From: Thiothrix sp.
GTDB lineage: Bacteria > Pseudomonadota > Gammaproteobacteria > Thiotrichales > Thiotrichaceae
Reading direction: 5' to 3'
Length of the DNA stretch: 64,000 nucleotides
Assembly (NCBI GenBank): GCA_020442915.1
Contig: JAGRJD010000022.1
Span: 4,748 to 68,747, forward strand
Every line of letters starts with the position of its first letter. Position 1 is the stretch's first letter. Below, one piece after another: positions 26,452-39,806 of this stretch. The notes below the pieces were generated by a model. The model saw only the letters and a program-made list of their open reading frames with translations. It did no database searches and was not told the DNA's origin. The translations under genes were made by a program, and so were the position numbers.

Positions 26452-27687
26452 ATGTGCAGGCTTTTGATGTTTACATGGCTGGCGGGGCTGCCGTTGTTCG
26501 GGTTGTCCGCCCAGGCGGCGGAAGTTGCCGGTCCTGCCACACCTGACTGCCGGATTGCCAGTTCCTGGTGTGTGCAGCAACCGCCCGGACCACCTGGTTA
26601 TGTCCCGGATGAATTGCTGCTGACCTATGACAGCTCCCGGCCTGCCAGTGCGGCGGAGGGGCTGATCGACCGTTTTCGTCTGCGGGAGAAGCGCAATGAT
26701 GTACTGGCTTCGGTGGGTACAGCCATGGTGACTGCAGCAATCGGCAAGCGTGACCCCGTGGCCCTGAGCCAGCTGATCAACCGCAGCAGTGATGTGGTGG
26801 AGGCGGCTCCCAGCAAGCTGTTTTATGCCATGGATGCGGCTGCACCAGCCAGTGGTGGCCGGGAACGGGGGGGGTATCCGCTGGGGCTGACGGGGATTGA
26901 GGCGGTTCATCGCCTCACCAAAGGTGCCGGTGTCAAGATCGGCATGATTGATACACCTATCGATATTTCCCATTTCGCACTGCAGAATGCCAAGGTCCAG
27001 CGTCTGGAGCTGGTCCATCCCGGCAACGCCAAAAATCAGCAGCATGGTACCGAGGTCGCCGGTATTCTGGTAAGCCAGAATCCGCGTATCGGCATCGCGC
27101 CCGAGGCCAGTCTGCTGGCCGTCAGTGCCTTCAGTGTGGACGTGAACAATCCTGATGTTCGTTCCAGTAATGCCGGTCTGGTGGCGCGTGCGATTGACCT
27201 GTGCATTCGTGAAGGGGTGGATGTGCTGAATCTCAGTTTTGCCGGAGGACAGGACAAGCTGGTTGACCGGATGATCCGGAAAGCCGTGGACTCCGGCATC
27301 ATCGTGATTGCCGCTGCCGGTAATGAAGGGCCTGCTGCAGCACCGGCCTATCCGGCAGCAACCCTGGGCGTCAAGGCGGTCACTGCCGTGGATCGTGCCG
27401 AGCAGGTATTCCGGGATGCGAACCAGGGCGATTATATTGATCTGGCCGCTCCGGGGGTCGATATCCTGACCACGGCGCCCCGGAGCTCTTTCAATGTGAC
27501 AACCGGGACTTCCATGGCTGCAGCGCATGTCACGGGGGTGGTGGCTTTGCTGCTGTCGATGAGGCGTCAGGGCTTTGATCAGGGCATCCTGGAAAAAACC
27601 GCTACGGACCTGGGAGAGCAGGGACGGGACCGTGCATTTGGCTATGGCCTTGTCAATGCGGCCCGTGCCATCAACACCATGAAGTGA
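26452..27687 (+). CDS. secreted subtilisin-like serine peptidase (S8 family) with a propeptide
   Basis: Signal peptide ...FGLSAQA-AE. Catalytic Asp (VKIGMIDTPID), His (HGTEVAGIL) and Ser (GTSMAAAHVTG) occur in S8 order. Confidence 0.9.
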   Translation: MCRLLMFTWLAGLPLFGLSAQAAEVAGPATPDCRIASSWCVQQPPGPPGYVPDELLLTYDSSRPASAAEGLIDRFRLREKRNDVLASVGTAMVTAAIGKRDPVALSQLINRSSDVVEAAPSKLFYAMDAAAPASGGRERGGYPLGLTGIEAVHRLTKGAGVKIGMIDTPIDISHFALQNAKVQRLELVHPGNAKNQQHGTEVAGILVSQNPRIGIAPEASLLAVSAFSVDVNNPDVRSSNAGLVARAIDLCIREGVDVLNLSFAGGQDKLVDRMIRKAVDSGIIVIAAAGNEGPAAAPAYPAATLGVKAVTAVDRAEQVFRDANQGDYIDLAAPGVDILTTAPRSSFNVTTGTSMAAAHVTGVVALLLSMRRQGFDQGILEKTATDLGEQGRDRAFGYGLVNAARAINTMK

Positions 27688-31278: not shown

Positions 31279-31381
31279 AAGCAGGTTTTATTCCTCAACC
31301 GCTAGAGAGGAGCGTTACCGCCGAAGTTGAATGAGGTGTAACGTTACGGCCCATCCTCAGATTCAGGGTGGGTCTTTTTTA
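31279..31381 (+). ncRNA. candidate small RNA of about 100 nt (three predicted stem-loops, the last an intrinsic terminator)
   Basis: It is bounded by the promoter above and the terminator at 31348-31380. SL1 pairs UUCCUC with GAGGAG. SL2 pairs AGCGUUAC with GUAACGUU. The 5' arm of SL1 (UUCCUC) and the 5' arm of the terminator stem (AUCCUC) carry CCUC motifs. No ORF was identified in this interval. Confidence 0.3.
31348..31380 (+). terminator. plus-strand intrinsic terminator overlapping the 3' end of the convergent protease gene
   Basis: (GG)CCCAUCCU-cagauuc-AGGGUGGG(UC) followed by UUUUUU at 31375-31380. The imperfect stem position is a U.G pair on the plus RNA but an A/C mismatch on the minus RNA. 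Confidence 0.55.
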
Positions 31382-33150
31382 TGTTCTTGGCCCTGAAGCA
31401 GCTGTGCCAGATAGGCGCTGATCTGTTCCGGCGTGTTACGGAAGGCGCCGCCCTGATCAATGCCTGCCAGCAGGTCAGTGCCCCGGTAGCCCGTCAGGTA
31501 ACGAATCAGCAGCAGACCATCCCGGCTGGCAGTACTGGCACCGTCAGCATCAATGTCCAGGTAGGGCAGGGCATCAGCGAGTTTCTGTTCCAGTGCCGCC
31601 GTATCAATGTTCTCACCTGAGACACCATCCGTCAGGGTCTGCCCGCGCAGACCGTTCATGTAGCGTGCTGCCAGCACGCCATCGACCAGTGCGGTTGCCG
31701 GTGCCTGGCTGTTGATGAAGCTTGGCAGGGCTGGAGCCTGTCCCAGCCAGGGGGCGATATGCGGGTAAAAGCGTTCCAGGCGGGTATACTCGTCCGGCCC
31801 GGCAGGGTTGGTGCAGGAGGAAGAGCCGCCCACCAGTGTGCCCTTGAGAAAACGTTCACCACCTACCGCCAGCCACAGCCCCGAGCCGCTGCTGCCGGGT
31901 GCCGTGATCCCCTGATACCAGGAAACCCGGGTGAAGTCACCGGATGGATTCGGGGTCACGGAATACCCGCCGGAGGTTGTTACCAGCGAAGTATAGGTGA
32001 CAAAATTACCTTCACTGTATTGGCGTTTGTCGCCGTTGCCGTGTTGCAGGCTGTGGGTGATCGCGTTATCGGCCAGCGGGTCCAGCCGCCAGCCGGACAG
32101 CCGGACGCCATCCGGGGGCGGGTTTTTGAGTAATACCAGGGTGCTGTCCAGCTCCGGACGGGTGCTGAGCAGGGTGGCTCCAGCGCCAGTTTGTTGCCAG
32201 CTGGCATCATTGCTGCCACAGCTGCTGTCCTGGTAAAACCAGAACGGCTCCATGCTGTCGGCTGCTGCCGTGTTGTTGATGCAGTGAGCGGCCGTCAGGA
32301 AATAGGGAATCTGGCTGGCGGTGTCACTGTCGGCGATCAGGGTGCCGGTACACAGGTAGCTGAAACCACTGGTATCCGTATAGACATAGCGTGCGACCGC
32401 CTTGCCTTCCTCCTGCCATTCTGTCGGGGCGCAGGCGGCACTCACCTCGCAACTGGACAGACGCAGGGCAGCGCTGGTATTGCGCAGGCCGCTGTTTCCT
32501 CCGGGTCCCTGAATCAGGTGTGACAGGCGTGGGAAAGACAGGTGGATATCAGCCGGATTGATCGTTGGGGGTGCATAAAGCTCCAGCCCCAGGGATTCAC
32601 CGGGAAAGGAGGGGGTCCACAGAGCCGCCGGATGGCTGCCCTGTGGCCGGAAGTTGTTGCTGCGGAATGGTCCCAGTACATGATTCGGGTCAAGCGGGTC
32701 AAACAGGCGGATTTCCACTCCGTCCGGCAGGGCATTGGCCTGAATCAGCACCCGGATGCGGCTGGCCTGACGTGAAATCAGTTCAAATGCGGCGGCCTGC
32801 CCGCCATCCGGCAGTTCACTCCAGGCCCAGTCGGCCACATCCGGCAGGTCAGGGATGACACGGCTGATTCCGATCGGGTAGGGACGCAGGCGGGCGTTGT
32901 TCTGGTTCAGGGGGGCCAGCTCCTGAGCGGAGGGGCTGCCGAGGTCCATGGTCATGGGGCGACCGCGAGCCATCCGTGAGGAGGCGACCGCTGCCGATTT
33001 CAGCATGGCCGGTGAGGCTGGCTTGACCTGCTGCTGTGCATGATAGGTTTCACCGCTCACCTGCAGGCTTTCTGCTGCCATGACAGGGAGGCGGGTGCCC
33101 AGCCACATGAGCGGCAGAAGCAGAAGCAGCCGGCAGGTTGCTGATTTCAT
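31363..33150 (-). CDS. secreted trypsin-fold (S1-type, lysyl-endopeptidase-like) serine protease with a C-terminal dockerin-like repeat tail
   Basis: Start trimmed to the ATG at 33150 (MKSATCRLLLLLPLMWLG..., signal peptide). Triad motifs are FLTAAHC, ELDSTLVLL and APGSSGSGLW. The last 109 aa hold two DGxLxxRYxxGxRGxxLxxG repeats, the second preceded by DIDADGASTASRD. Confidence 0.8.
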   Translation of the reverse strand: MKSATCRLLLLLPLMWLGTRLPVMAAESLQVSGETYHAQQQVKPASPAMLKSAAVASSRMARGRPMTMDLGSPSAQELAPLNQNNARLRPYPIGISRVIPDLPDVADWAWSELPDGGQAAAFELISRQASRIRVLIQANALPDGVEIRLFDPLDPNHVLGPFRSNNFRPQGSHPAALWTPSFPGESLGLELYAPPTINPADIHLSFPRLSHLIQGPGGNSGLRNTSAALRLSSCEVSAACAPTEWQEEGKAVARYVYTDTSGFSYLCTGTLIADSDTASQIPYFLTAAHCINNTAAADSMEPFWFYQDSSCGSNDASWQQTGAGATLLSTRPELDSTLVLLKNPPPDGVRLSGWRLDPLADNAITHSLQHGNGDKRQYSEGNFVTYTSLVTTSGGYSVTPNPSGDFTRVSWYQGITAPGSSGSGLWLAVGGERFLKGTLVGGSSSCTNPAGPDEYTRLERFYPHIAPWLGQAPALPSFINSQAPATALVDGVLAARYMNGLRGQTLTDGVSGENIDTAALEQKLADALPYLDIDADGASTASRDGLLLIRYLTGYRGTDLLAGIDQGGAFRNTPEQISAYLAQLLQGQEHKKDPP

Positions 33151-34607
33151 GAGTGGCCTCCTCCGCCGGGTGTTGTATGGGGCGGGACAGTGATGCGCTG
33201 CCCGTGAGGCAGGGCCGGGAGCGCCAGCAGGCTCAGCAGCAGCCCCAGCAGAATCAGCAGCCATTCCTGCAGGGTGGGAATGGCGGCAGTACCGGGAGTG
33301 GCCGTGGTGCTGGCCGTGGTCGCCGTTGCTGATGCCGTCACCGCACCGGTCTGGGGAACAGTGACCTGATTCAGGGGCTGGCTCTGATCCGTATTCCGGG
33401 AATTTGCCAGGCTTTCATCATCCCGAATCAGCAGGTTGATCTGGCTGGCAGGACCGGGTTGATAGCCGTCACCGGCCACAATGCCCAGCTGCAGGGTTTC
33501 ATCACTTTCCAGGTGATTGTCATCACGGATGATCAGGGCCGTAAAGGTGGTCTGGCTGTTGGCATCAAAGGTGATGGCGGTATTGTCCAGCTGGTAGTCC
33601 TGCCCGGCTGTGGCCGTGCCGTCAAGCTGCAGCTGCACGGTCAGCGGAACGGATAAATCGCCCTGGGTCCGGGTCAGGGCCAGCAGCACGGTACCGGATC
33701 GGGCTTCATCCAGAGTGCTCTGGCTGCTGCTGATGCTGACCAGGGTTGGCAGGACTGGCTGGTCTGCGTCCCGGATCTGCAGGGTCGCGGTTGTCGGTGC
33801 CACGAGGATATAGCCGGTTTCCGGTACCAGCGTCAGGCTCAGGCTTTCATCCACCTCGGATGCCTGATCAGTCCGCGCTGTGATGGCGACATCGGTAAAC
33901 TGGCTGCCGGCAGGCAGGATGATACTGGAGGGCAGGGCGGTGTAATCCTGATCCGGGGTGGCTGTACCGCCAGCCTGCAGGCTGACCTGAAGATCGCCAC
34001 AACCCTCTGGAAGTACGGTCTGGCTGCGGATACGCACCAGCCCTGCCGGCCCGCCTTCTGTCGCGGCCTGGCTCAGGGCGGTTATGGAGAGTTCGGGCTT
34101 TTGGCACAGGATCAGCGGTGGTGCATGAAGGTTGGTATTGCGTGCCGTGGCGGCGGTTGACAGGTTGATACGGGTATGGGCGGAAAAATTGCCAGTGGTC
34201 CGGACCTGGAGCTGGAACAGCGGCAACGGCAATTGTCCGGTTCCGGGCCAGCCAGCGTCCAGATCAAGCCAGGACAACAGGTAATACCGGTCGGTGCGCG
34301 GGTCATGGTCAGCATCCTCACTGTCTGGCCAGGGGCCGCTCAGGGGCTGCAGTCCATCGGGGTAGCGCGTGTTGACAGCCAGCTCCAGCGCACGGGTATC
34401 AAAATGAATCCGAACGCCCAGGCCGGTTTCCTGTCCGGTTTCGGGCTGGCTGACTGTGTAGTACCAGGGGATATCAAGGGTCGTGTTGCTGTCGATGAAA
34501 CGGGTCGGTGCCTGTGCTGTCAGGTTCTGGCTGGCCCACAGGGACGTACTGCCGGACAGCAGACACAGGATGAAGCAGGCTTTAAGGGGCAGGGCAGGCG
34601 TCTTCAT
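33147..34607 (-). CDS. secreted surface protein: beta-rich N-terminal domain, two Calx-beta-like modules and an IPTL-CTERM-like sorting tail
   Basis: Signal peptide MKTPALPLKACFILCLLSGSTSLWA. Two Calx-beta-like modules (GGTATPDQDYTALP...ATLQIRDAD; DGTATAGQDYQLDN...INLLIRDDE). A T/A-rich linker is followed by IPTLQEWLLILLGLLLSLLAL. Its stop overlaps the protease ATG (ATGA). Confidence 0.75.
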   Translation of the reverse strand: MKTPALPLKACFILCLLSGSTSLWASQNLTAQAPTRFIDSNTTLDIPWYYTVSQPETGQETGLGVRIHFDTRALELAVNTRYPDGLQPLSGPWPDSEDADHDPRTDRYYLLSWLDLDAGWPGTGQLPLPLFQLQVRTTGNFSAHTRINLSTAATARNTNLHAPPLILCQKPELSITALSQAATEGGPAGLVRIRSQTVLPEGCGDLQVSLQAGGTATPDQDYTALPSSIILPAGSQFTDVAITARTDQASEVDESLSLTLVPETGYILVAPTTATLQIRDADQPVLPTLVSISSSQSTLDEARSGTVLLALTRTQGDLSVPLTVQLQLDGTATAGQDYQLDNTAITFDANSQTTFTALIIRDDNHLESDETLQLGIVAGDGYQPGPASQINLLIRDDESLANSRNTDQSQPLNQVTVPQTGAVTASATATTASTTATPGTAAIPTLQEWLLILLGLLLSLLALPALPHGQRITVPPHTTPGGGGHS

Positions 34608-36639: not shown

Positions 36640-37539
36640 TCAGGTCTCCTGCTGCAGCAGGTGCATTGCTGCCTGCAGACGCCGGCTGTGCTCGCTCAGG
36701 GATTGCAGGGACTGGCGCAGGGCCTGTACCTGCCGGTGCGCCTCATCCAGTTCGGTTTGCTGCCACAGGATGGCCAGCGTGCGGCGTCTTTGCTCACGTT
36801 CGGCCTGACGTTTTGCCGCCCAGACAGGATCAAGCCGGGTGGTGACGGCGGGGCGGCCATGACGGTACTGAAAATCCACCACGGTTTCACGGAACAGCTT
36901 TTCCATGTCAGCTTCGGCCTGCCGGAAGACTTCCGGGCTGTTTGTACGCAGGCGGGTGCGGAAATAATCACGCACGGCTGGCGGTAATTCCAGCAGGTCA
37001 TGGCGACCATTTCGGGGTGGTTCCAGCAGTTTCAAACGGCGCAGGTTTTCAATCACCCAGTGCCAGTGTTCCTCACTCAGGCGCCCGAGCGGCCCCAGAA
37101 AGCGCACGTACTCGTCACGCCGGGTCAGCCAGCGCTCCATCAGGGTAGAGCGAAACACGGCTTTCAGCGGTTGTTGCGGAACCGGCTGGTCACTCAGGCT
37201 CAGCAGCGTCAGCAGGGTCAGGTCCGATGAGCCCTGCATCTTGTTTTCAAAGGCTGCCAGCACCTGGCGCACGGCCTGTATGGCCGGATCGGCACCGGCA
37301 GACAGCGGAAGCACCGGCAGGGTGTCGAGCCCGTTGAGACGGCCCGCGTACCAGCGTCTGAGGTAGGTGGCCAGCAGGCTCAGAGCCATGGTATTGGCCT
37401 GATAGCGCTCAACCACCTGACGCAGCCGCTCCGGGGAACCCTTGATGCCGGCAGCCGACAGCAGCGTCAGGCCCTGCTCCTGGTCTGCCTGTGTCAGGTG
37501 AGTGATCATCAGGTGTGATTCTGTGGATGAAGCTGACAT
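36640..37539 (-). CDS. hypothetical protein resembling the winged-helix/arm region of a STAND (NB-ARC-type) NTPase, without the NTPase domain
   Basis: ...LTQADQEQGLTLLSAAGIKGSPERLRQVVERYQANTMALSLLATYL... follows the 'L-x-L..ea..LL....G.PLAL..la.yL' pattern. No Walker A or B motif occurs anywhere in the ORF or upstream of it. The C-terminus is a coiled coil. Confidence 0.45.
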   Translation of the reverse strand: MSASSTESHLMITHLTQADQEQGLTLLSAAGIKGSPERLRQVVERYQANTMALSLLATYLRRWYAGRLNGLDTLPVLPLSAGADPAIQAVRQVLAAFENKMQGSSDLTLLTLLSLSDQPVPQQPLKAVFRSTLMERWLTRRDEYVRFLGPLGRLSEEHWHWVIENLRRLKLLEPPRNGRHDLLELPPAVRDYFRTRLRTNSPEVFRQAEADMEKLFRETVVDFQYRHGRPAVTTRLDPVWAAKRQAEREQRRRTLAILWQQTELDEAHRQVQALRQSLQSLSEHSRRLQAAMHLLQQET

Positions 37540-37596: not shown

Positions 37597-38022
37597 TTAA
37601 TTGGATGGATGACTGCCGGATGAATGAGCGTCTGTTGACAGCTGTTCCGCTGCCGGGTCCGGGTGCTCGACCAGCTCGTCAGCAACCAGCTGTTCCGGTG
37701 TGAGCTTGCGCGTCAGCCCGGAGGCTTCAGGCGGTGGTTCCATACCACCGGCTTCGATCACACCGGTTGTGGATGGCTCCATGTCGCTGAGACCTGACGT
37801 CATGTTGGTACGGCAGTCATCCATGTAGCGGGCGTAATCGGCTGGTGTGACTTCATCTTCACTGGCATAGGATTCGCACAGGGCATCAACCCCCTCATCC
37901 ACGGATTCCATGGCCACTTCGGCCTCCCCCGGCTCATCCGCTGGCAGGATGGTATCCTCGGCCTGAAGTGTGGCCGTGAACATGAAACAGGCCAGCAGGA
38001 GCTGACCGGAAGCTTTCTTCAT
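37597..38022 (-). CDS. hypothetical secreted acidic protein
   Basis: Start trimmed to the ATG at 38022. Signal peptide MKKASGQLLLACFMFTATLQA-ED. The mature part is rich in Asp and Glu with two Cys. No recognisable family. Confidence 0.5.
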   Translation of the reverse strand: MKKASGQLLLACFMFTATLQAEDTILPADEPGEAEVAMESVDEGVDALCESYASEDEVTPADYARYMDDCRTNMTSGLSDMEPSTTGVIEAGGMEPPPEASGLTRKLTPEQLVADELVEHPDPAAEQLSTDAHSSGSHPSN

Positions 38023-38162
38023 ATTGACCTCAATGCATTGTTCAGGATGGGCGAAAGCCCACTTCACCGGTTTGACTGTCCGCGTGCAGATTCGTTCTGC
38101 TTTCCCATCCCGTGCAGCCCTGAACCTGCCGTGCGGTGCCTGTTCGTATGCAGTGCACCTGC

Positions 38163-39806
38163 TCAGTCATCGCTGGAAATCACCGCCTGTTTGATATTCA
38201 GCAACTCATGGGACAGGGCCAGACGGGTGTCCTGATCCTGAACCGCTTTCAGCCAGGTATTGGCCGCCTCCATCTGCCCGGTGTCCATGGCCATTCCAGC
38301 CATCCGGACCACCAGCCGGTAATGTTCCAGCGGTGTGTCAGGCTGTTGGCTTTTTACCAGCTCGTCGGCCTGTGCCGTCAACTGGCTGATACCGGCCTGG
38401 TTGCCTGTGCGCAGCTGGCCCTGCAACATGTAACGCAGTTTCTCCAGCCGGTCAATCACTGGCAGTTTTTCCCGCTCCAGGGCGTCAATACTTTTGCCCA
38501 GTGCCATGCGGGCATTCTCCTGCTGCCCGAGCAGGGTATAGGAGCCCGCCAGATTGGACAATACCAGCGCTTCATCCGGGCTTTCCGTTGTACGGGCGGC
38601 CAGATTCCGGATGCCGGTGACTATTTCATTGCTGAATTCCCGGCGTTGAGCCGGATTCTCCAGGGCCAGCAGCTGGGTGAGCAGCCAGGAGCGCAGATTG
38701 GGGTTTTTCTGTTCGTCGGCATAAACCAGTGCCAGCCGGGGGCGTCCCAGCTCAATCAGGCGCTTGATGGAGGCTCTGTGCTGGGCCAGCTGATCGGTAT
38801 CGGTCTCGCCCATGTGTGTGCTCATCGCGGGCGGGTGCAGGGCATTGATCAGGTGTTCGCGTTCTTTGGCAGGGATGGCCGTCCCCTTGGCAGGGGCTCC
38901 GGCATCCACGCCCTGGGCAAGTTCGCTGTCAGCGGAAAGCTCGGGTGCAAGCTGCCGGGCCATGGCCAGTATATTGCCGCCAACCTGTCCCTGAACCATG
39001 GGCAGGCCGGTTTCCGGGTCAAGGCCGCTGCGGGTGCCGTTTGCCTGACGGGCCGCCTGTGTGACCGTGGAAAATTCGAGGCCACCCGGCTGGGGGGCGG
39101 CTCCGGACAGACCGGACTTGGCCCCGCGTGCACCAGGCTCTGCTGCCTGAGTAGGGGACGGCACCTCAGTATCATCCAGTAACAAGGTATTGGCCGCATA
39201 ATAACCGCCAACGCTCATGGCCATCACGACCACCGCCGAGACGGCATAATCCAGGGTTCGGGTCTGGCGCTTGAAACCCAGTCGCTGACGGGCTTCTTCG
39301 CGCAGGTGTTGCTGATCTTCAGCTTCGGCCCGTTCCCGCGTTTCCTTGAGCTGCTGTTCCCGCGTCAGCTCCAGTTTCTTTTTTTCTTTTTCGTAGATGG
39401 CCTGGCGCTGCTGTTCCCGTCGGTATTTTTCCCCGAAAACACCGCATTTTTCACATTTCTGTTCCGGATTCAGGGGTTGTTCGTGTTTGCAGGCTGGGCA
39501 GGTGTAGGTTTCCTCATCCTTCGAGGTGTCCTTTGCGACCAGTCCCAGGGCCGGACGCAGCTCGGTGGTGACTTGCTGCTCCAGAAACAGCTGCCGGATT
39601 TTTTCTCCGTCCGCCTGGGTCAGGTCTTCCAGTACCGCCGTCTTGTTGGCGCTGTTGGCACCGAACAGCAGGGCTTCGGAGAGCTTGTATTCCAGATAGG
39701 GATCATCCTTGCGTTGCAGCAGGTGCAGCAGGTCATTGACCAGCTGTTCAACCTTTTTTTCTGAATGGTGCTGAAGAACGACCAGATCGTAACGTACATC
39801 AGGCAT
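38163..39806 (-). CDS. hypothetical single-pass membrane protein: L7/L12-CTD-like N-domain, zinc ribbon, charged coiled coil, TM helix, periplasmic helical (TPR-like) repeats
   Basis: CPACKHEQPLNPEQKCEKCG zinc ribbon. A K/E/R/Q-rich segment. TM helix YAVSAVVVMAMSVGGYYAANTLL. The C-terminal 250 aa or so are helical-repeat-like. Confidence 0.6.
   Translation of the reverse strand: MPDVRYDLVVLQHHSEKKVEQLVNDLLHLLQRKDDPYLEYKLSEALLFGANSANKTAVLEDLTQADGEKIRQLFLEQQVTTELRPALGLVAKDTSKDEETYTCPACKHEQPLNPEQKCEKCGVFGEKYRREQQRQAIYEKEKKKLELTREQQLKETRERAEAEDQQHLREEARQRLGFKRQTRTLDYAVSAVVVMAMSVGGYYAANTLLLDDTEVPSPTQAAEPGARGAKSGLSGAAPQPGGLEFSTVTQAARQANGTRSGLDPETGLPMVQGQVGGNILAMARQLAPELSADSELAQGVDAGAPAKGTAIPAKEREHLINALHPPAMSTHMGETDTDQLAQHRASIKRLIELGRPRLALVYADEQKNPNLRSWLLTQLLALENPAQRREFSNEIVTGIRNLAARTTESPDEALVLSNLAGSYTLLGQQENARMALGKSIDALEREKLPVIDRLEKLRYMLQGQLRTGNQAGISQLTAQADELVKSQQPDTPLEHYRLVVRMAGMAMDTGQMEAANTWLKAVQDQDTRLALSHELLNIKQAVISSDD

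What the first reader, a model, noticed from the sequence alone, without database searches (positions are those of the whole stretch)
31363..34607. Coupled gene pair: anchored scaffold (cohesin-like N-domain, two Calx-beta, IPTL-CTERM) and an S1 protease with a dockerin-like tail, a possible protease-display system
**Gene 1 (34607 to 33147)**
- It encodes a signal peptide and a beta-rich domain of about 150 aa. The segment GLGVRIHFDTRALELAV...YYLLSWLDLDAGWPGTGQLPLPLFQLQVRT reminds me of cohesin modules.
- It then has two Calx-beta-like modules, a Thr/Ala linker and an IPTL-type C-terminal sorting signal.
- Its TGA overlaps the ATG of gene 2 (ATGA at 33147-33150).

**Gene 2 (33150 to 31363)**
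- It encodes a secreted trypsin-fold protease with a long pro-region and a complete His/Asp/Ser triad (TAAHC, DSTLVLL, GSSGSG).
- It ends in a 109-aa tail with two copies of DG(V/L)L(A/L)(A/I)RY(M/L)xGxRGxxLxxG.
- The second copy is preceded by an acidic loop, DIDADGASTASRD, like the Ca-binding loop-helix of dockerins.

**Hypothesis**
The protease is tethered non-covalently, through a Ca-dependent cohesin-dockerin-like contact, to a scaffold that is itself anchored in the envelope by the IPTL-CTERM pathway. I am not aware of a described cohesin-dockerin protease display system in a sulfur-oxidising proteobacterium. All domain assignments except the protease triad and Calx-beta-like motifs are by eye.
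Basis: inference. Interest (0 to 1): 0.7.

Follow-up and report, generated by a model that had tools for sequence, protein, structure and literature searches.

The report
Cohesin–dockerin-like protease docking gene pair
Two overlapping genes of a Thiolinea/Thiothrix-type sulfur bacterium encode a membrane-anchored protein with a divergent cohesin domain and a lysine-protease-like enzyme with a divergent double-dockerin tail, so the cellulosome's plug-and-socket system is probably used here to hold a protease on a partner protein.

Summary

- **Gene 1 (33147-34607, minus strand):** signal peptide, a 150-aa all-beta domain, two Calx-beta domains, a Thr/Ala linker and an IPTL-CTERM anchor.
- **Gene 2 (31363-33150, minus strand):** a lysyl-endopeptidase-type S1 zymogen with a propeptide, plus a 126-aa helical tail.
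- **Junction:** the genes overlap by ATGA, behind a GGAGGAGG ribosome-binding site.
- **Cohesin call:** the AF2 model of the N-domain (pLDDT 94) gives cohesins as 11 of the top 12 PDB fold hits. Pfam Cohesin is hit by 13 of 51 family members.
- **Dockerin call:** Pfam Dockerin_1 is hit by 13 of 31 orthologous tails, two above the curated cut-off. The best PDB sequence hits are dockerins.
- **Tail anatomy:** the tail is two tandem dockerin-like units. The first has a degenerate Ca loop.
- **Conservation:** 27 of 27 genome loci with a tailed protease have the cohesin-like gene directly upstream. None of 52 tail-less homologues do.
- **Domain fusion:** elsewhere the two modules are fused side by side (55 of 152 family representatives), including in S1 proteases.
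- **Modularity:** the dockerin-like module caps many unrelated secreted proteins.

Physical docking is strongly suggested but not shown. I rate this a new variant of a known kind (a Gram-negative, non-cellulosomal cohesin-dockerin system), with interest about 0.6.

The parts
33147..34607 (-). Gene 1: 486-aa secreted partner or scaffold protein (signal peptide, cohesin-like domain, two Calx-beta domains, Thr/Ala linker, IPTL-CTERM anchor)
   Evidence: ORF. Pfam results. A 72%-identical orthologue lies in the same synteny.
34533..34607 (-). Signal peptide of gene 1 (about residues 1-25, ...SLWA|SQ)
   Evidence: Read from the sequence. The domain that follows begins with an A-x-Q that is invariant in orthologues. 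No predictor was run.
34074..34535 (-). Cohesin-like N-domain (residues 25-178). It is the only part of the partner conserved in all orthologues.
   Evidence: AF2 pLDDT 94.3, all-beta. Foldseek: 11 of the top 12 PDB hits are cohesins. Exhaustive phmmer finds 806 representatives. 13 of 51 members hit Pfam Cohesin. Alignment A2.
33759..34073 (-). Calx-beta-like domain 1 (about residues 179-283)
   Evidence: Pfam PF03160 reports two stretches. The boundaries of this first one are approximate.
33420..33743 (-). Calx-beta domain 2 (residues 289-396)
   Evidence: Pfam PF03160 best stretch 289-396, E 1e-15.
33288..33419 (-). Thr/Ala/Ser-rich low-complexity linker (about residues 397-440)
   Evidence: Read from the translation.
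33210..33287 (-). IPTL-CTERM sorting or anchor signal (AIPTLQEW plus a hydrophobic helix), followed by an unusual 20-aa tail
   Evidence: PF18203 scores 22.8 bits against a 20.8 cut-off. TIGR04174 scores 12.2 bits, below its 20.5 cut-off. Orthologues carry IPTL/IPSL/VPTL plus a helix and an Arg/Lys cluster.
33157..33164 (-). Shine-Dalgarno GGAGGAGG for gene 2, lying inside the 3' end of gene 1
33147..33150 (-). ATGA start/stop overlap (translational coupling)
   Evidence: The same ATGA overlap is seen in most orthologous loci.
31363..33150 (-). Gene 2: 595-aa lysyl-endopeptidase-type S1 protease precursor with a C-terminal double dockerin-like tail
33073..33150 (-). Signal peptide of gene 2 (about residues 1-26, ...PVMAA|E)
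   Evidence: Read from the sequence. No predictor was run.
32515..33021 (-). Propeptide (residues 44-212), homologous to the lysyl endopeptidase propeptide
   Evidence: PDB 9omd_I at E 9.7e-7. Precomputed PF27052 Lysyl_endopep_N.
31756..32457 (-). S1 catalytic domain (residues 232-465) with the triad H289, D335, S421
   Evidence: PDB 9omd_A at E 1.3e-31. Pfam Trypsin and Trypsin_2. The triad is invariant in alignment A1.
31561..31722 (-). Dockerin-like unit 1 (residues 477-530). The Ca loop is degenerate (INSQAPATALVDG), followed by the helix VLAARYMNGLRG.
   Evidence: hhalign of unit 1 against unit 2: probability 97.3%, E 2.4e-11. AF2 helices 18-29, 35-38 and 48-61 of the tail.
31384..31560 (-). 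Dockerin-like unit 2 (residues 531-589). Acidic loop DIDADGASTASRD, helix GLLLIRYLTGYRG, then a second helix.
   Evidence: The tail profile's best PDB hits are dockerins aligned on this stretch. In orthologues Pfam Dockerin_1 positions 3-57 align to exactly this unit, at 27.1 and 25.8 bits against a 22.9 cut-off. AF2 helices 72-84, 89-92 and 105-117.

Best explanation
**Proposed mechanism**
- The two genes form a translationally coupled operon that makes a two-part extracytoplasmic complex.
- Gene 1 is exported by Sec and held by its C-terminal IPTL-CTERM helix. It presents a divergent cohesin domain at its N-terminus, on a stalk of two Calx-beta domains and a Thr/Ala linker.
- Gene 2 is exported as a zymogen of the lysyl endopeptidase (Lys-C/API) type, with an inhibitory and chaperoning propeptide.
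- The C-terminus of gene 2 is two tandem dockerin-like units. The second keeps an acidic EF-hand-like Ca2+ loop.
- The most likely mechanism is that this tail plugs, Ca2+-dependently, into the cohesin-like domain of gene 1. The mature protease is then held on the partner, cell-bound in the Thiolinea type, instead of diffusing away.

**Shown here**
- The gene structure and the overlap.
- The domain families and folds.
- The operon conservation.
- The fusion of the two modules elsewhere.

**Inferred**
- The physical contact and its Ca dependence.
- The final location (outer surface or periplasmic side of the inner membrane).
- The substrate.
For: **Cohesin identity of the N-domain**
- The AF2 model has pLDDT 94.3.
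- In Foldseek, 11 of the top 12 PDB hits are cohesins: 5lxv, 6kgc, 4ums, 1anu, 2ccl, 3ul4 and others. TM-scores are 0.52-0.63 and E values 1e-5 to 4e-4.
- 13 of 51 family members hit PF00963, best E 1.3e-7.
- P0283 scores 41.7 bits, above the cut-off. It also hits PDB cohesin 4uyp_A at E 0.0095.

**Dockerin identity of the tail**
- The best PDB sequence hits are 1ohz_B, 2ccl_B, 3ul4_B, 4fl4_A and 4uyp_B.
- 13 of 31 orthologous tails hit PF00404, best E 4.8e-6, and two are above the cut-off.
- The AF2 model has two helix / short-helix / helix units.
- The internal repeat is confirmed.

**Coupling**
- ATGA overlap plus a Shine-Dalgarno sequence.
- The partner gene lies directly upstream in 5 fetched loci and in 27 of 27 tail-bearing genome loci.
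- None of 52 tail-less homologues, and neither L006 nor L007, has the partner nearby.
- One assembly (JAYMYJ01) holds both a tailed protease with partner (L028) and a tail-less paralogue without one (L006).
- Only the N-domain of the partner is conserved across partner types.

**Domain fusion (Rosetta stone)**
- 55 of 152 cohesin-like family representatives also carry the dockerin-like module. It is almost always immediately C-terminal to a cohesin-like module.
- Two S1 proteases, P0190 and P0307, carry the modules in cis.

**Dockerin-like modular logic**
- The module sits at the extreme C-terminus of unrelated proteins: metalloprotease, amine oxidase, LRR, beta-helix and FG-GAP.
- Some loci have runs of small cohesin-only ORFs next to them.
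Against:
- The window's own N-domain and tail give no Pfam hit, even at E<=10. The assignment rests on relatives and on a predicted fold.
- Foldseek of the tail model found no PDB dockerin, or anything else, below E=1.
- The PDB sequence hits of the tail profile are marginal, at E 0.06-0.7.
- The Ca loop has 13 residues rather than 12. The first unit has lost its loop, and the second helix's loop is degenerate in the window protein.
- The cohesin-like family has a conserved acidic loop (DxxDxDxDPxTD) that I do not recall as typical of cohesins (own knowledge).
- All tail-bearing loci belong to one clade (Thiotrichaceae) in one syntenic position. The perfect co-occurrence could therefore reflect a single ancestral event.
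- Thiothrix sensu stricto partners lack any anchor, so display on the cell is not general.
- Cis adjacency of the two modules could mean intramolecular packing rather than a trans plug-and-socket contact.
Confidence: 0.6

Rival explanations
1. The two proteins are co-expressed but do not bind each other. The dockerin-like tail targets the protease to something else, such as another cohesin-like protein encoded elsewhere in the genome, LPS, or a sheath polysaccharide. Alternatively it only stabilises the enzyme with Ca2+. On this reading the partner is an independent surface adhesin or stalk protein.
For: - The dockerin-like module caps many unrelated proteins whose loci show no cohesin-like ORF: 74 of 80 metagenome loci have D-only ORFs, and only 3 of those also have a separate C-only ORF within the flanks.
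- The cohesin-like domain occurs in 2-7 tandem copies in giant cadherin and Calx-beta proteins that look like fibrillar adhesins.
- One non-cohesin stalk domain, CLIPPER 9ifr, is also among the top fold hits.
- No interface has been demonstrated.
Against: - The 4-bp overlap, and the 27 of 27 association of tail with partner, including the within-genome contrast of L028 against L006.
- Only the cohesin-like domain of the partner is conserved, while its C-terminal half is swapped.
- Where the two modules share a polypeptide, they are immediately adjacent.
- Only one cohesin-like and one dockerin-like module exist in the 64-kb window.
Confidence: 0.2
2. Both modules are generic Ca-binding structural elements of large surface proteins, with no plug-and-socket function. 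The cohesin-like sandwich would be a stalk unit and the helical repeat a spacer or folding unit. Their similarity to cohesin and dockerin would then be fold-level ancestry only.
For: - The conserved acidic loops in both modules and the association with Calx-beta, cadherin and RTX repeats.
- The recurrent C-D-D-C arrangement in cis could be one rigid supermodule.
- The window's domains fall below Pfam thresholds.
Against: - It does not explain why a single cohesin-like domain and a protease with only the helical module are kept as an overlapping gene pair across a whole family.
- It does not explain why the helical module sits at the extreme C-terminus of dozens of unrelated enzymes. That placement is how dockerins are deployed (own knowledge of cellulosome architecture).
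Confidence: 0.12
3. The partner is a dedicated inhibitor, chaperone or substrate of the protease. It might, for example, be processed by it, or might protect the cell from it.
For: Tight translational coupling is typical of enzyme/inhibitor or enzyme/chaperone pairs (general knowledge). Both proteins are exported.
Against: - The protease already has its own propeptide, homologous to the lysyl endopeptidase propeptide.
- The N-domain has no similarity to known inhibitor families in Pfam.
- It belongs to a large family of tandem surface modules.
- The protease cannot be the IPTL-CTERM sorting enzyme, because type B partners lack that signal yet keep the pair.
Confidence: 0.08

Closest known systems
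Cohesin-dockerin systems of Firmicutes (cellulosome; Ruminococcus bromii amylosome; mucinolysome)
   Same: - A roughly 150-aa beta-sandwich cohesin on an anchored, non-catalytic protein, and a Ca-loop/helix dockerin at the C-terminus of secreted enzymes.
- Fold and Pfam family links are shown.
- Dockerin-bearing peptidases and protease inhibitors exist in cellulosomes (PMC12484212).
- Cohesin and dockerin also occur in presumably non-cellulolytic bacteria, with unusual cargo such as aspartic peptidase-like domains (PMC11557425).
   Different: - The host is a Gram-negative gammaproteobacterium, and the cargo is a Lys-C-type protease, not a CAZyme.
- It is a minimal one-cohesin/one-dockerin pair encoded by overlapping genes.
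- The dockerin is a tandem double unit of about 2 x 57 aa with a 13-residue loop and a degenerate first unit.
- Anchoring is by IPTL-CTERM instead of SLH or sortase.
- The cohesin family carries a conserved acidic loop.
- Neither window domain reaches Pfam thresholds itself.
Non-cellulosomal cohesin- and dockerin-like modules catalogued across bacteria and archaea (Peer et al. 2009, FEMS Microbiol Lett; recalled from own knowledge, not read here)
   Same: Divergent cohesin and dockerin modules outside cellulolytic organisms. They are often in the same polypeptide and attached to proteases and adhesin-type domains.
   Different: - As far as I could check, no paper in the library combines cohesin, dockerin and Thiothrix.
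- IPTL-CTERM is mentioned in only one paper.
- The operon-split protease/partner pair and its clade-wide conservation are not described there, to my knowledge.
Lysyl endopeptidase (Lys-C, Achromobacter protease I family; PDB 9omd, 4nsy)
   Same: The propeptide and the S1 catalytic domain are homologous (E 9.7e-7 and 1.3e-31). The triad is intact.
   Different: It carries a C-terminal double dockerin-like tail, which was absent from the 62 more distant homologues examined. Lys specificity was not tested here.
VesB/rhombosortase (GlyGly-CTERM) surface-retained S1 protease of Vibrio cholerae (own knowledge)
   Same: A trypsin-fold protease of a Gram-negative bacterium is retained at the cell surface through a C-terminal sorting signal of the PEP-CTERM/GlyGly-CTERM/IPTL-CTERM type.
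   Different: There the protease itself carries the sorting signal. Here the signal is on a separate partner protein, and the protease would be attached non-covalently.
CLIPPER (DUF11) and other stalk domains of fibrillar adhesins (10.1101/2025.04.25.650565; PDB 9ifr)
   Same: A beta-sandwich that recurs in tandem in giant surface proteins. PDB 9ifr is rank 6 in the fold search.
   Different: No family member hit DUF11 in Pfam, whereas 13 hit Cohesin. There is no sign of the isopeptide Lys/Asn/Asp signature (not examined in detail).

Membership tests
Cohesin (Pfam PF00963) | About 140-150-aa nine-stranded beta-sandwich (jelly-roll) fold | tested here: met
   The AF2 model has pLDDT 94.3 and is all-beta. 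In Foldseek, 11 of the top 12 PDB hits are cohesins, with probability 1.00 and TM-scores 0.52-0.63.
Cohesin (Pfam PF00963) | Sequence match to the family profile | tested here: inconclusive
   The window domain itself has no hit at E<=10. Its homologues do: 13 of 51 hit PF00963, best E 1.3e-7. P0283 scores 41.7 bits against a 24.1 cut-off. Membership is therefore transitive, at superfamily level.
Cohesin (Pfam PF00963) | Binds a cognate dockerin | not testable with these tools
   The evidence is indirect only: operon coupling and module fusion.
Dockerin type I (Pfam PF00404) | Sequence match to the family profile | tested here: inconclusive
   The window tail itself has no hit at E<=10. Among orthologous tails, 13 of 31 hit. 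Two exceed the 22.9-bit cut-off, at 27.1 and 25.8 bits, with model positions 3-57 aligned on unit 2. The tail profile's best PDB hits are dockerins at E 0.06-0.7.
Dockerin type I (Pfam PF00404) | Two F-hand segments, each a 12-residue Asp/Asn Ca2+ loop followed by a helix | tested here: inconclusive
   - Unit 2 has the loop DIDADGASTASRD, which is 13 residues, with conserved Asp at loop positions 1, 3, 5 and 13, followed by a helix.
- Its second loop (DQGGAFRNTPEQ) is degenerate in the window protein but D-x-T-x-S-G....D-like in some orthologues.
- Unit 1 has lost its loop.
- Sources.
Dockerin type I (Pfam PF00404) | Small three-helix fold matching solved dockerins | tested here: not met
   The AF2 model (pLDDT 88.5) shows two helix / short-helix / helix units. 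However, Foldseek against the PDB returned no dockerin and no hit below E=1.7. Small helical domains are hard for this method.
Dockerin type I (Pfam PF00404) | Ca2+-dependent binding to a cohesin | not testable with these tools
   No multimer prediction or experiment was available.
IPTL-CTERM sorting domain (PF18203 / TIGR04174) | C-terminal IPTL motif, a hydrophobic helix and a basic cluster | tested here: met
   PF18203 scores 22.8 bits against a 20.8 cut-off. TIGR04174 scores only 12.2 against 20.5. Orthologues show clearer IPTL plus helix plus Arg/Lys (L012 scores 27.6 bits). The window copy has a weak basic cluster and an extra 20-aa tail.
Calx-beta (PF03160) | Profile match above the curated cut-off | tested here: met
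   58.2 bits against a cut-off of 27, in two stretches.
Lysyl endopeptidase family (S1, Lys-C/API type) | Homologous propeptide and S1 catalytic domain with a His/Asp/Ser triad | tested here: met
   9omd_A at E 1.3e-31 and 9omd_I at E 9.7e-7. PF27052 is precomputed. The triad is invariant.
Lysyl endopeptidase family (S1, Lys-C/API type) | Lys-specific S1 pocket | not tested
   The specificity residues were not mapped.
CLIPPER / DUF11 (PF01345) | Profile match and an isopeptide-forming Lys/Asn/Asp | tested here: not met
   None of 51 members hit DUF11. There is only a fold-level hit to 9ifr.

The most novel reading that the evidence does not exclude
The pair would be the founding, experimentally tractable example of a widespread but unannotated Gram-negative cohesin-dockerin system. 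On this reading, a divergent double-dockerin module at the C-terminus of many unrelated secreted proteins plugs into divergent cohesins. The cargo proteins include S1 and metallo-proteases, amine oxidases, LRR proteins and beta-helix proteins. The cohesins sit on anchored or giant adhesin-like scaffolds. In Thiotrichaceae this has been reduced to a core-genome 1:1 protease-docking operon linked to the uncharacterised IPTL-CTERM sorting pathway.
Probability: 0.45. Interest if true: 0.75.

Novelty: new variant of a known kind. Interest (0 to 1): 0.6.

Why it matters
**If docking is real**
- Cohesin-dockerin assembly is studied almost entirely in Gram-positive polysaccharide degraders (cellulosome, amylosome, mucinolysome). 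It would also organise proteases and other enzymes on the envelopes of Gram-negative environmental bacteria.
- These include the filamentous sulfur oxidisers that I know to cause sludge bulking (own knowledge).

**What the pair offers**
- It is a minimal and clade-wide conserved test case: one socket, one plug and one enzyme.
- It could be used to define the specificity of this divergent module family.
- It could help annotate hundreds of currently 'hypothetical' proteins. The cohesin-like domain alone has 806 representative clusters, mostly without a Pfam call.
- It could help learn where IPTL-CTERM proteins end up.
- It could provide an orthogonal plug-and-socket pair for protein engineering.

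Tried and rejected
**Searches that found nothing or little**
- Direct Pfam and NCBIfam scans of the window's N-domain, tail and pro-region found nothing, even at E<=10. The identification needed relatives.
- A word-indexed homologue search with whole gene 1 found only one full-length relative, which wrongly suggested the scaffold was nearly unique. The same tool with the N-domain profile found only 4 proteins. The exhaustive search and context look-ups corrected this.
- A PDB profile search with the N-domain alignment gave no hit.
- Foldseek of the tail model gave no meaningful hit.
- The search for related loci with the 31-sequence tail alignment failed for lack of a conserved stretch. The whole-protease alignment and a D-module alignment from other proteins were used instead.

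**Ideas considered and rejected**
- CLIPPER/DUF11 identity for the N-domain: there is only a fold-level hit and no Pfam DUF11 hit in any member.
- The protease as the IPTL-CTERM sorting enzyme: type B partners lack the signal.
- The longer 633-aa reading of gene 2 from the ATG at 33264: it has no signal peptide, whereas the 33150 start has a Shine-Dalgarno sequence, a signal peptide and agreement with orthologues.

**Literature and what could not be done**
- Searches found no description of this system.

Full report
**1. The observation**

- Gene 1 is 33147..34607 on the minus strand and encodes 486 aa.
- The ORF for gene 2 extends to 33264. The ATG at 33150 is the sensible start:
  - It is preceded by GGAGGAGG at a 6-nt spacing.
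  - It overlaps the TGA of gene 1 as ATGA.
  - It gives a typical signal peptide.
  - It matches the start of the orthologues.

Domain calls for gene 1:
- Pfam confirms two Calx-beta stretches (E 1e-15).
- Pfam confirms an IPTL-CTERM at residues 441-466, above its cut-off. The TIGRFAM version is below its cut-off.

Domain calls for gene 2:
- It is a lysyl-endopeptidase-type S1 protease. The catalytic domain matches PDB 9omd_A at E 1.3e-31.
- The long 'pro-region' matches the separately crystallised lysyl endopeptidase propeptide, 9omd_I, at E 9.7e-7.
- The triad is invariant in 33 homologues.

Neither the 150-aa N-domain of gene 1 nor the 126-aa tail of gene 2 gives any Pfam hit by itself, even at E<=10.

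**2. The N-domain is a divergent cohesin**

An exhaustive phmmer search with residues 25-178 found 806 representative clusters at E<=1e-3.
- Many are giant proteins with 2-7 tandem copies, together with cadherin, Calx-beta and Big domains.
- The family therefore exists but is largely unannotated.

I built a 51-sequence alignment (A4) and predicted the structure.
- AF2 gives a confident all-beta model, with pLDDT 94.3 and pTM 0.89.
- In Foldseek against the PDB, 11 of the 12 hits with E<=1e-3 are cohesins from cohesin-dockerin complexes or scaffoldins. They include 5lxv, 6kgc, 4ums, 1anu, 2ccl, 3kcp, 5nrk/5nrm and 3ul4.
- The twelfth hit is the CLIPPER/DUF11 stalk domain 9ifr.

Sequence evidence then decides between cohesin and CLIPPER.
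- Scanned one by one, 13 of the 51 family members hit Pfam Cohesin (best E 1.3e-7) and none hits DUF11.
- One member, P0283, is above the Cohesin gathering score. It also hits the PDB cohesin 4uyp_A.

The most conserved parts of the family are:
- the GLGLRxHYD strand;
- an acidic loop, DxxDxDxDPxTD;
- a WPG loop;
- the TxIxFSASST strand.

I do not recall the acidic loop as typical of cohesins (own knowledge). It may be an extra Ca site; that is an inference.

**3. The tail is a tandem pair of divergent dockerin units**

The tail is conserved in about 58 protease clusters from Thiothrix and Thiolinea.
- A profile of 31 tails (A5) finds dockerins as its five best PDB sequence hits: 1ohz_B, 2ccl_B, 3ul4_B, 4fl4_A and 4uyp_B.
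- These align DiDadgs..a.kDglLliRYLl to DVDKNGSIN-STDVLLLSRYLL, but at marginal E values of 0.06-0.7.
- Scanned individually, 13 of 31 tails hit Pfam Dockerin_1. Two are above the curated cut-off (T. lacustris at 27.1 bits and P0049 at 25.8 bits, against 22.9).

In those alignments the whole 57-position dockerin model maps onto the second half of the tail only.
- hhalign shows that the first half is a duplicate of the second (probability 97.3%, E 2.4e-11).
- The AF2 model (pLDDT 88.5) has two successive helix / short-helix / helix units.
- So the tail is two dockerin-like units. Unit 1 has lost its Ca loop (INSQAPATALVDG against IDADGASTASRDG).

Foldseek of this small helical model found nothing, so the fold-level test for dockerin is not met.

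**4. The pair is a conserved unit**

The only full-length relative of gene 1 found by the indexed search sits in the same synteny, with the same overlap. Context look-ups for more distant proteases showed a gene overlapping the protease start each time. Those genes share only the N-domain with gene 1.

A genome-collection scan with the protease alignment returned 80 loci. A six-frame HMM scan of these gave:
- 27 loci whose protease has the tail, all Thiotrichaceae, and all 27 have the cohesin-like gene immediately upstream;
- one further locus that is cut before the tail;
- 52 tail-less homologues (Burkholderiales, Xanthomonadales, Phycisphaerae and others), none of which has the cohesin-like gene in the available flanks.

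Two tail-less Thiothrix-related paralogues also lack it. One of them (L006) comes from the same assembly as a tailed, partnered copy (L028).

There are two partner types:
- **Type A** (Thiolinea, T. eikelboomii): cohesin-like domain, one or two Calx-beta domains and an IPTL-like anchor.
- **Type B** (Thiothrix sensu stricto): cohesin-like domain plus an unknown domain of about 260 aa, with no transmembrane helix.

Caveat: all tailed loci are orthologues in one syntenic position, between an ABC-F gene and rnd. The perfect association therefore counts as roughly one evolutionary event.

**5. Independent evidence that the two modules belong together**

- Among the 152 cohesin-like family representatives held, 55 also contain the dockerin-like module. 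It is nearly always within a few residues of the C-terminal end of a cohesin-like module, in a recurrent C-D-D-C arrangement.
- Two S1 proteases carry the modules in cis: P0190, with a Lys-C-like catalytic domain, and P0307.
In the 80 loci kept, the module is typically at the extreme C-terminus of unrelated proteins.
  - These include a reprolysin/M10 metalloprotease, a flavin amine oxidase, LRR proteins, a beta-helix, FG-GAP/TSP3 and fn3/Big proteins.
  - Several D-bearing genes sometimes lie in a row, or next to runs of small cohesin-only ORFs, as in L143, L093, L091, L116, L153 and L158.
- This is the deployment logic of dockerins and cohesins (own knowledge of cellulosome architecture).

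**6. Mechanism**

Shown:
- an overlapping, Shine-Dalgarno-coupled gene pair;
- a secreted, C-terminally anchored cohesin-like protein;
- a secreted Lys-C-type zymogen with a double dockerin-like tail;
- clade-wide coupling of the two genes;
- fusion of the two modules elsewhere.

Inferred:
- The tail binds the partner's cohesin-like domain, probably through the Ca-loaded unit 2, so that the mature protease stays on the partner.
- In the window organism the partner would hold the complex at the envelope.
- Whether that means the outer surface or the periplasmic face of the inner membrane depends on what happens to IPTL-CTERM proteins. That appears almost unstudied: only one paper in the library mentions the signal.
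- The substrate is unknown. Peptide scavenging or remodelling of sheath or holdfast proteins are guesses.

The rival explanations are scored separately in this report:
- co-expression without binding;
- purely structural modules;
- an inhibitor, chaperone or substrate role for the partner.

**7. Comparison and novelty**

The closest known systems are the cohesin-dockerin assemblies of Firmicutes: the cellulosome, the amylosome and the mucinolysome.
- Dockerin-bearing peptidases and inhibitors are known there (PMC12484212).
- Cohesin and dockerin genes are also known in presumably non-cellulolytic bacteria (PMC11557425).
- From memory, there is also a 2009 catalogue of non-cellulosomal modules by Peer et al.

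What is new here:
- a Gram-negative host;
- a minimal, operon-encoded 1:1 pair;
- a Lys-C-type cargo;
- a double-unit dockerin with a 13-residue loop;
- an IPTL-CTERM/Calx-beta carrier;
- the link to a large unannotated module family.

No paper in the library combines cohesin, dockerin and Thiothrix.

**Verdict**

Binding remains to be shown. I rate this a new variant of a known kind, with interest 0.6.

Noticed in passing
P0190 (1110 aa) and P0307 (1331 aa), proteins from the searches: Two S1 proteases carry the cohesin-like and dockerin-like modules in one polypeptide. P0190 has a Lys-C-like catalytic domain followed by C-D-C. P0307 has Trypsin_2, three Flg_new_2 domains and then C-D-C. These are fused versions of the split gene pair in the window.
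   Followed up: partly
L089-L168 (metagenome loci), e.g. L101:3727-6351, L096:4267-6360, L143: The double dockerin-like module sits at the extreme C-terminus of very different secreted proteins: metalloprotease, flavin amine oxidase, LRR, beta-helix and FG-GAP. Some loci have several such genes in a row, or runs of roughly 190-aa cohesin-only ORFs. This looks like a broad unannotated cohesin-dockerin-like system in environmental bacteria.
   Followed up: partly
L003:4712-6004, L020-L024, L026-L028, L030, L032, L035, L038, L052 (Thiothrix sensu stricto partners): Type B partners replace the Calx-beta and IPTL-CTERM part with an unknown domain of about 260 aa. It ends in an F-hand-like motif, DLNLDGKTLYVGPDNDVNxLLGNILL...STNYILPGSLP. 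It has no transmembrane helix and no Pfam hit, and its role is unexplained.
   Followed up: partly
L006 and L028 (both from WGS prefix JAYMYJ01): One Thiothrix assembly holds two paralogues. One is a tail-bearing protease with the cohesin-like partner. The other is a 479-aa tail-less protease without a partner, lying next to a TonB-dependent receptor and a CHAT/TPR gene.
   Followed up: partly
L008 / L033 (contig_607) and L017:3466-4083: In one long-read MAG the partner-protease pair is broken into five short ORFs, although both modules are still detectable. In L017 the partner stops at 205 aa. This could be pseudogenisation or assembly indel errors.
   Followed up: no
window 26452-27687 (+): A secreted subtilisin-type (S8) peptidase gene lies about 4 kb from the pair. 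In the related locus L001 it is conserved in the same neighbourhood, together with an ECF sigma factor gene. That makes a second exported protease in the same region.
   Followed up: no
window 36640-37539 (-), 37597-38067 (-), 38163-39806 (-): Three genes upstream of the ABC-F gene have no Pfam domain in the orthologous locus L001. One is a small acidic protein with a signal peptide. Another is a 547-aa protein with a CxxC...CxxC stretch and a long charged coiled region. All three are conserved in synteny but uncharacterised.
   Followed up: no
window 34074-34535 (-), residues 71-82 of the N-domain: The cohesin-like family has a strongly conserved acidic loop, DxxDxDxDPxTD. I do not recall this as a feature of cellulosomal cohesins, and it may be an additional Ca2+ site.
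   Followed up: no
window 31348-31374: A 10-bp GC-rich hairpin overlaps the stop codon of gene 2. The scan scores it as a terminator on the plus strand, where a T-run follows it. On the minus strand it is preceded by an A-run, so it may act as a bidirectional terminator between gene 2 and rnd.
   Followed up: no
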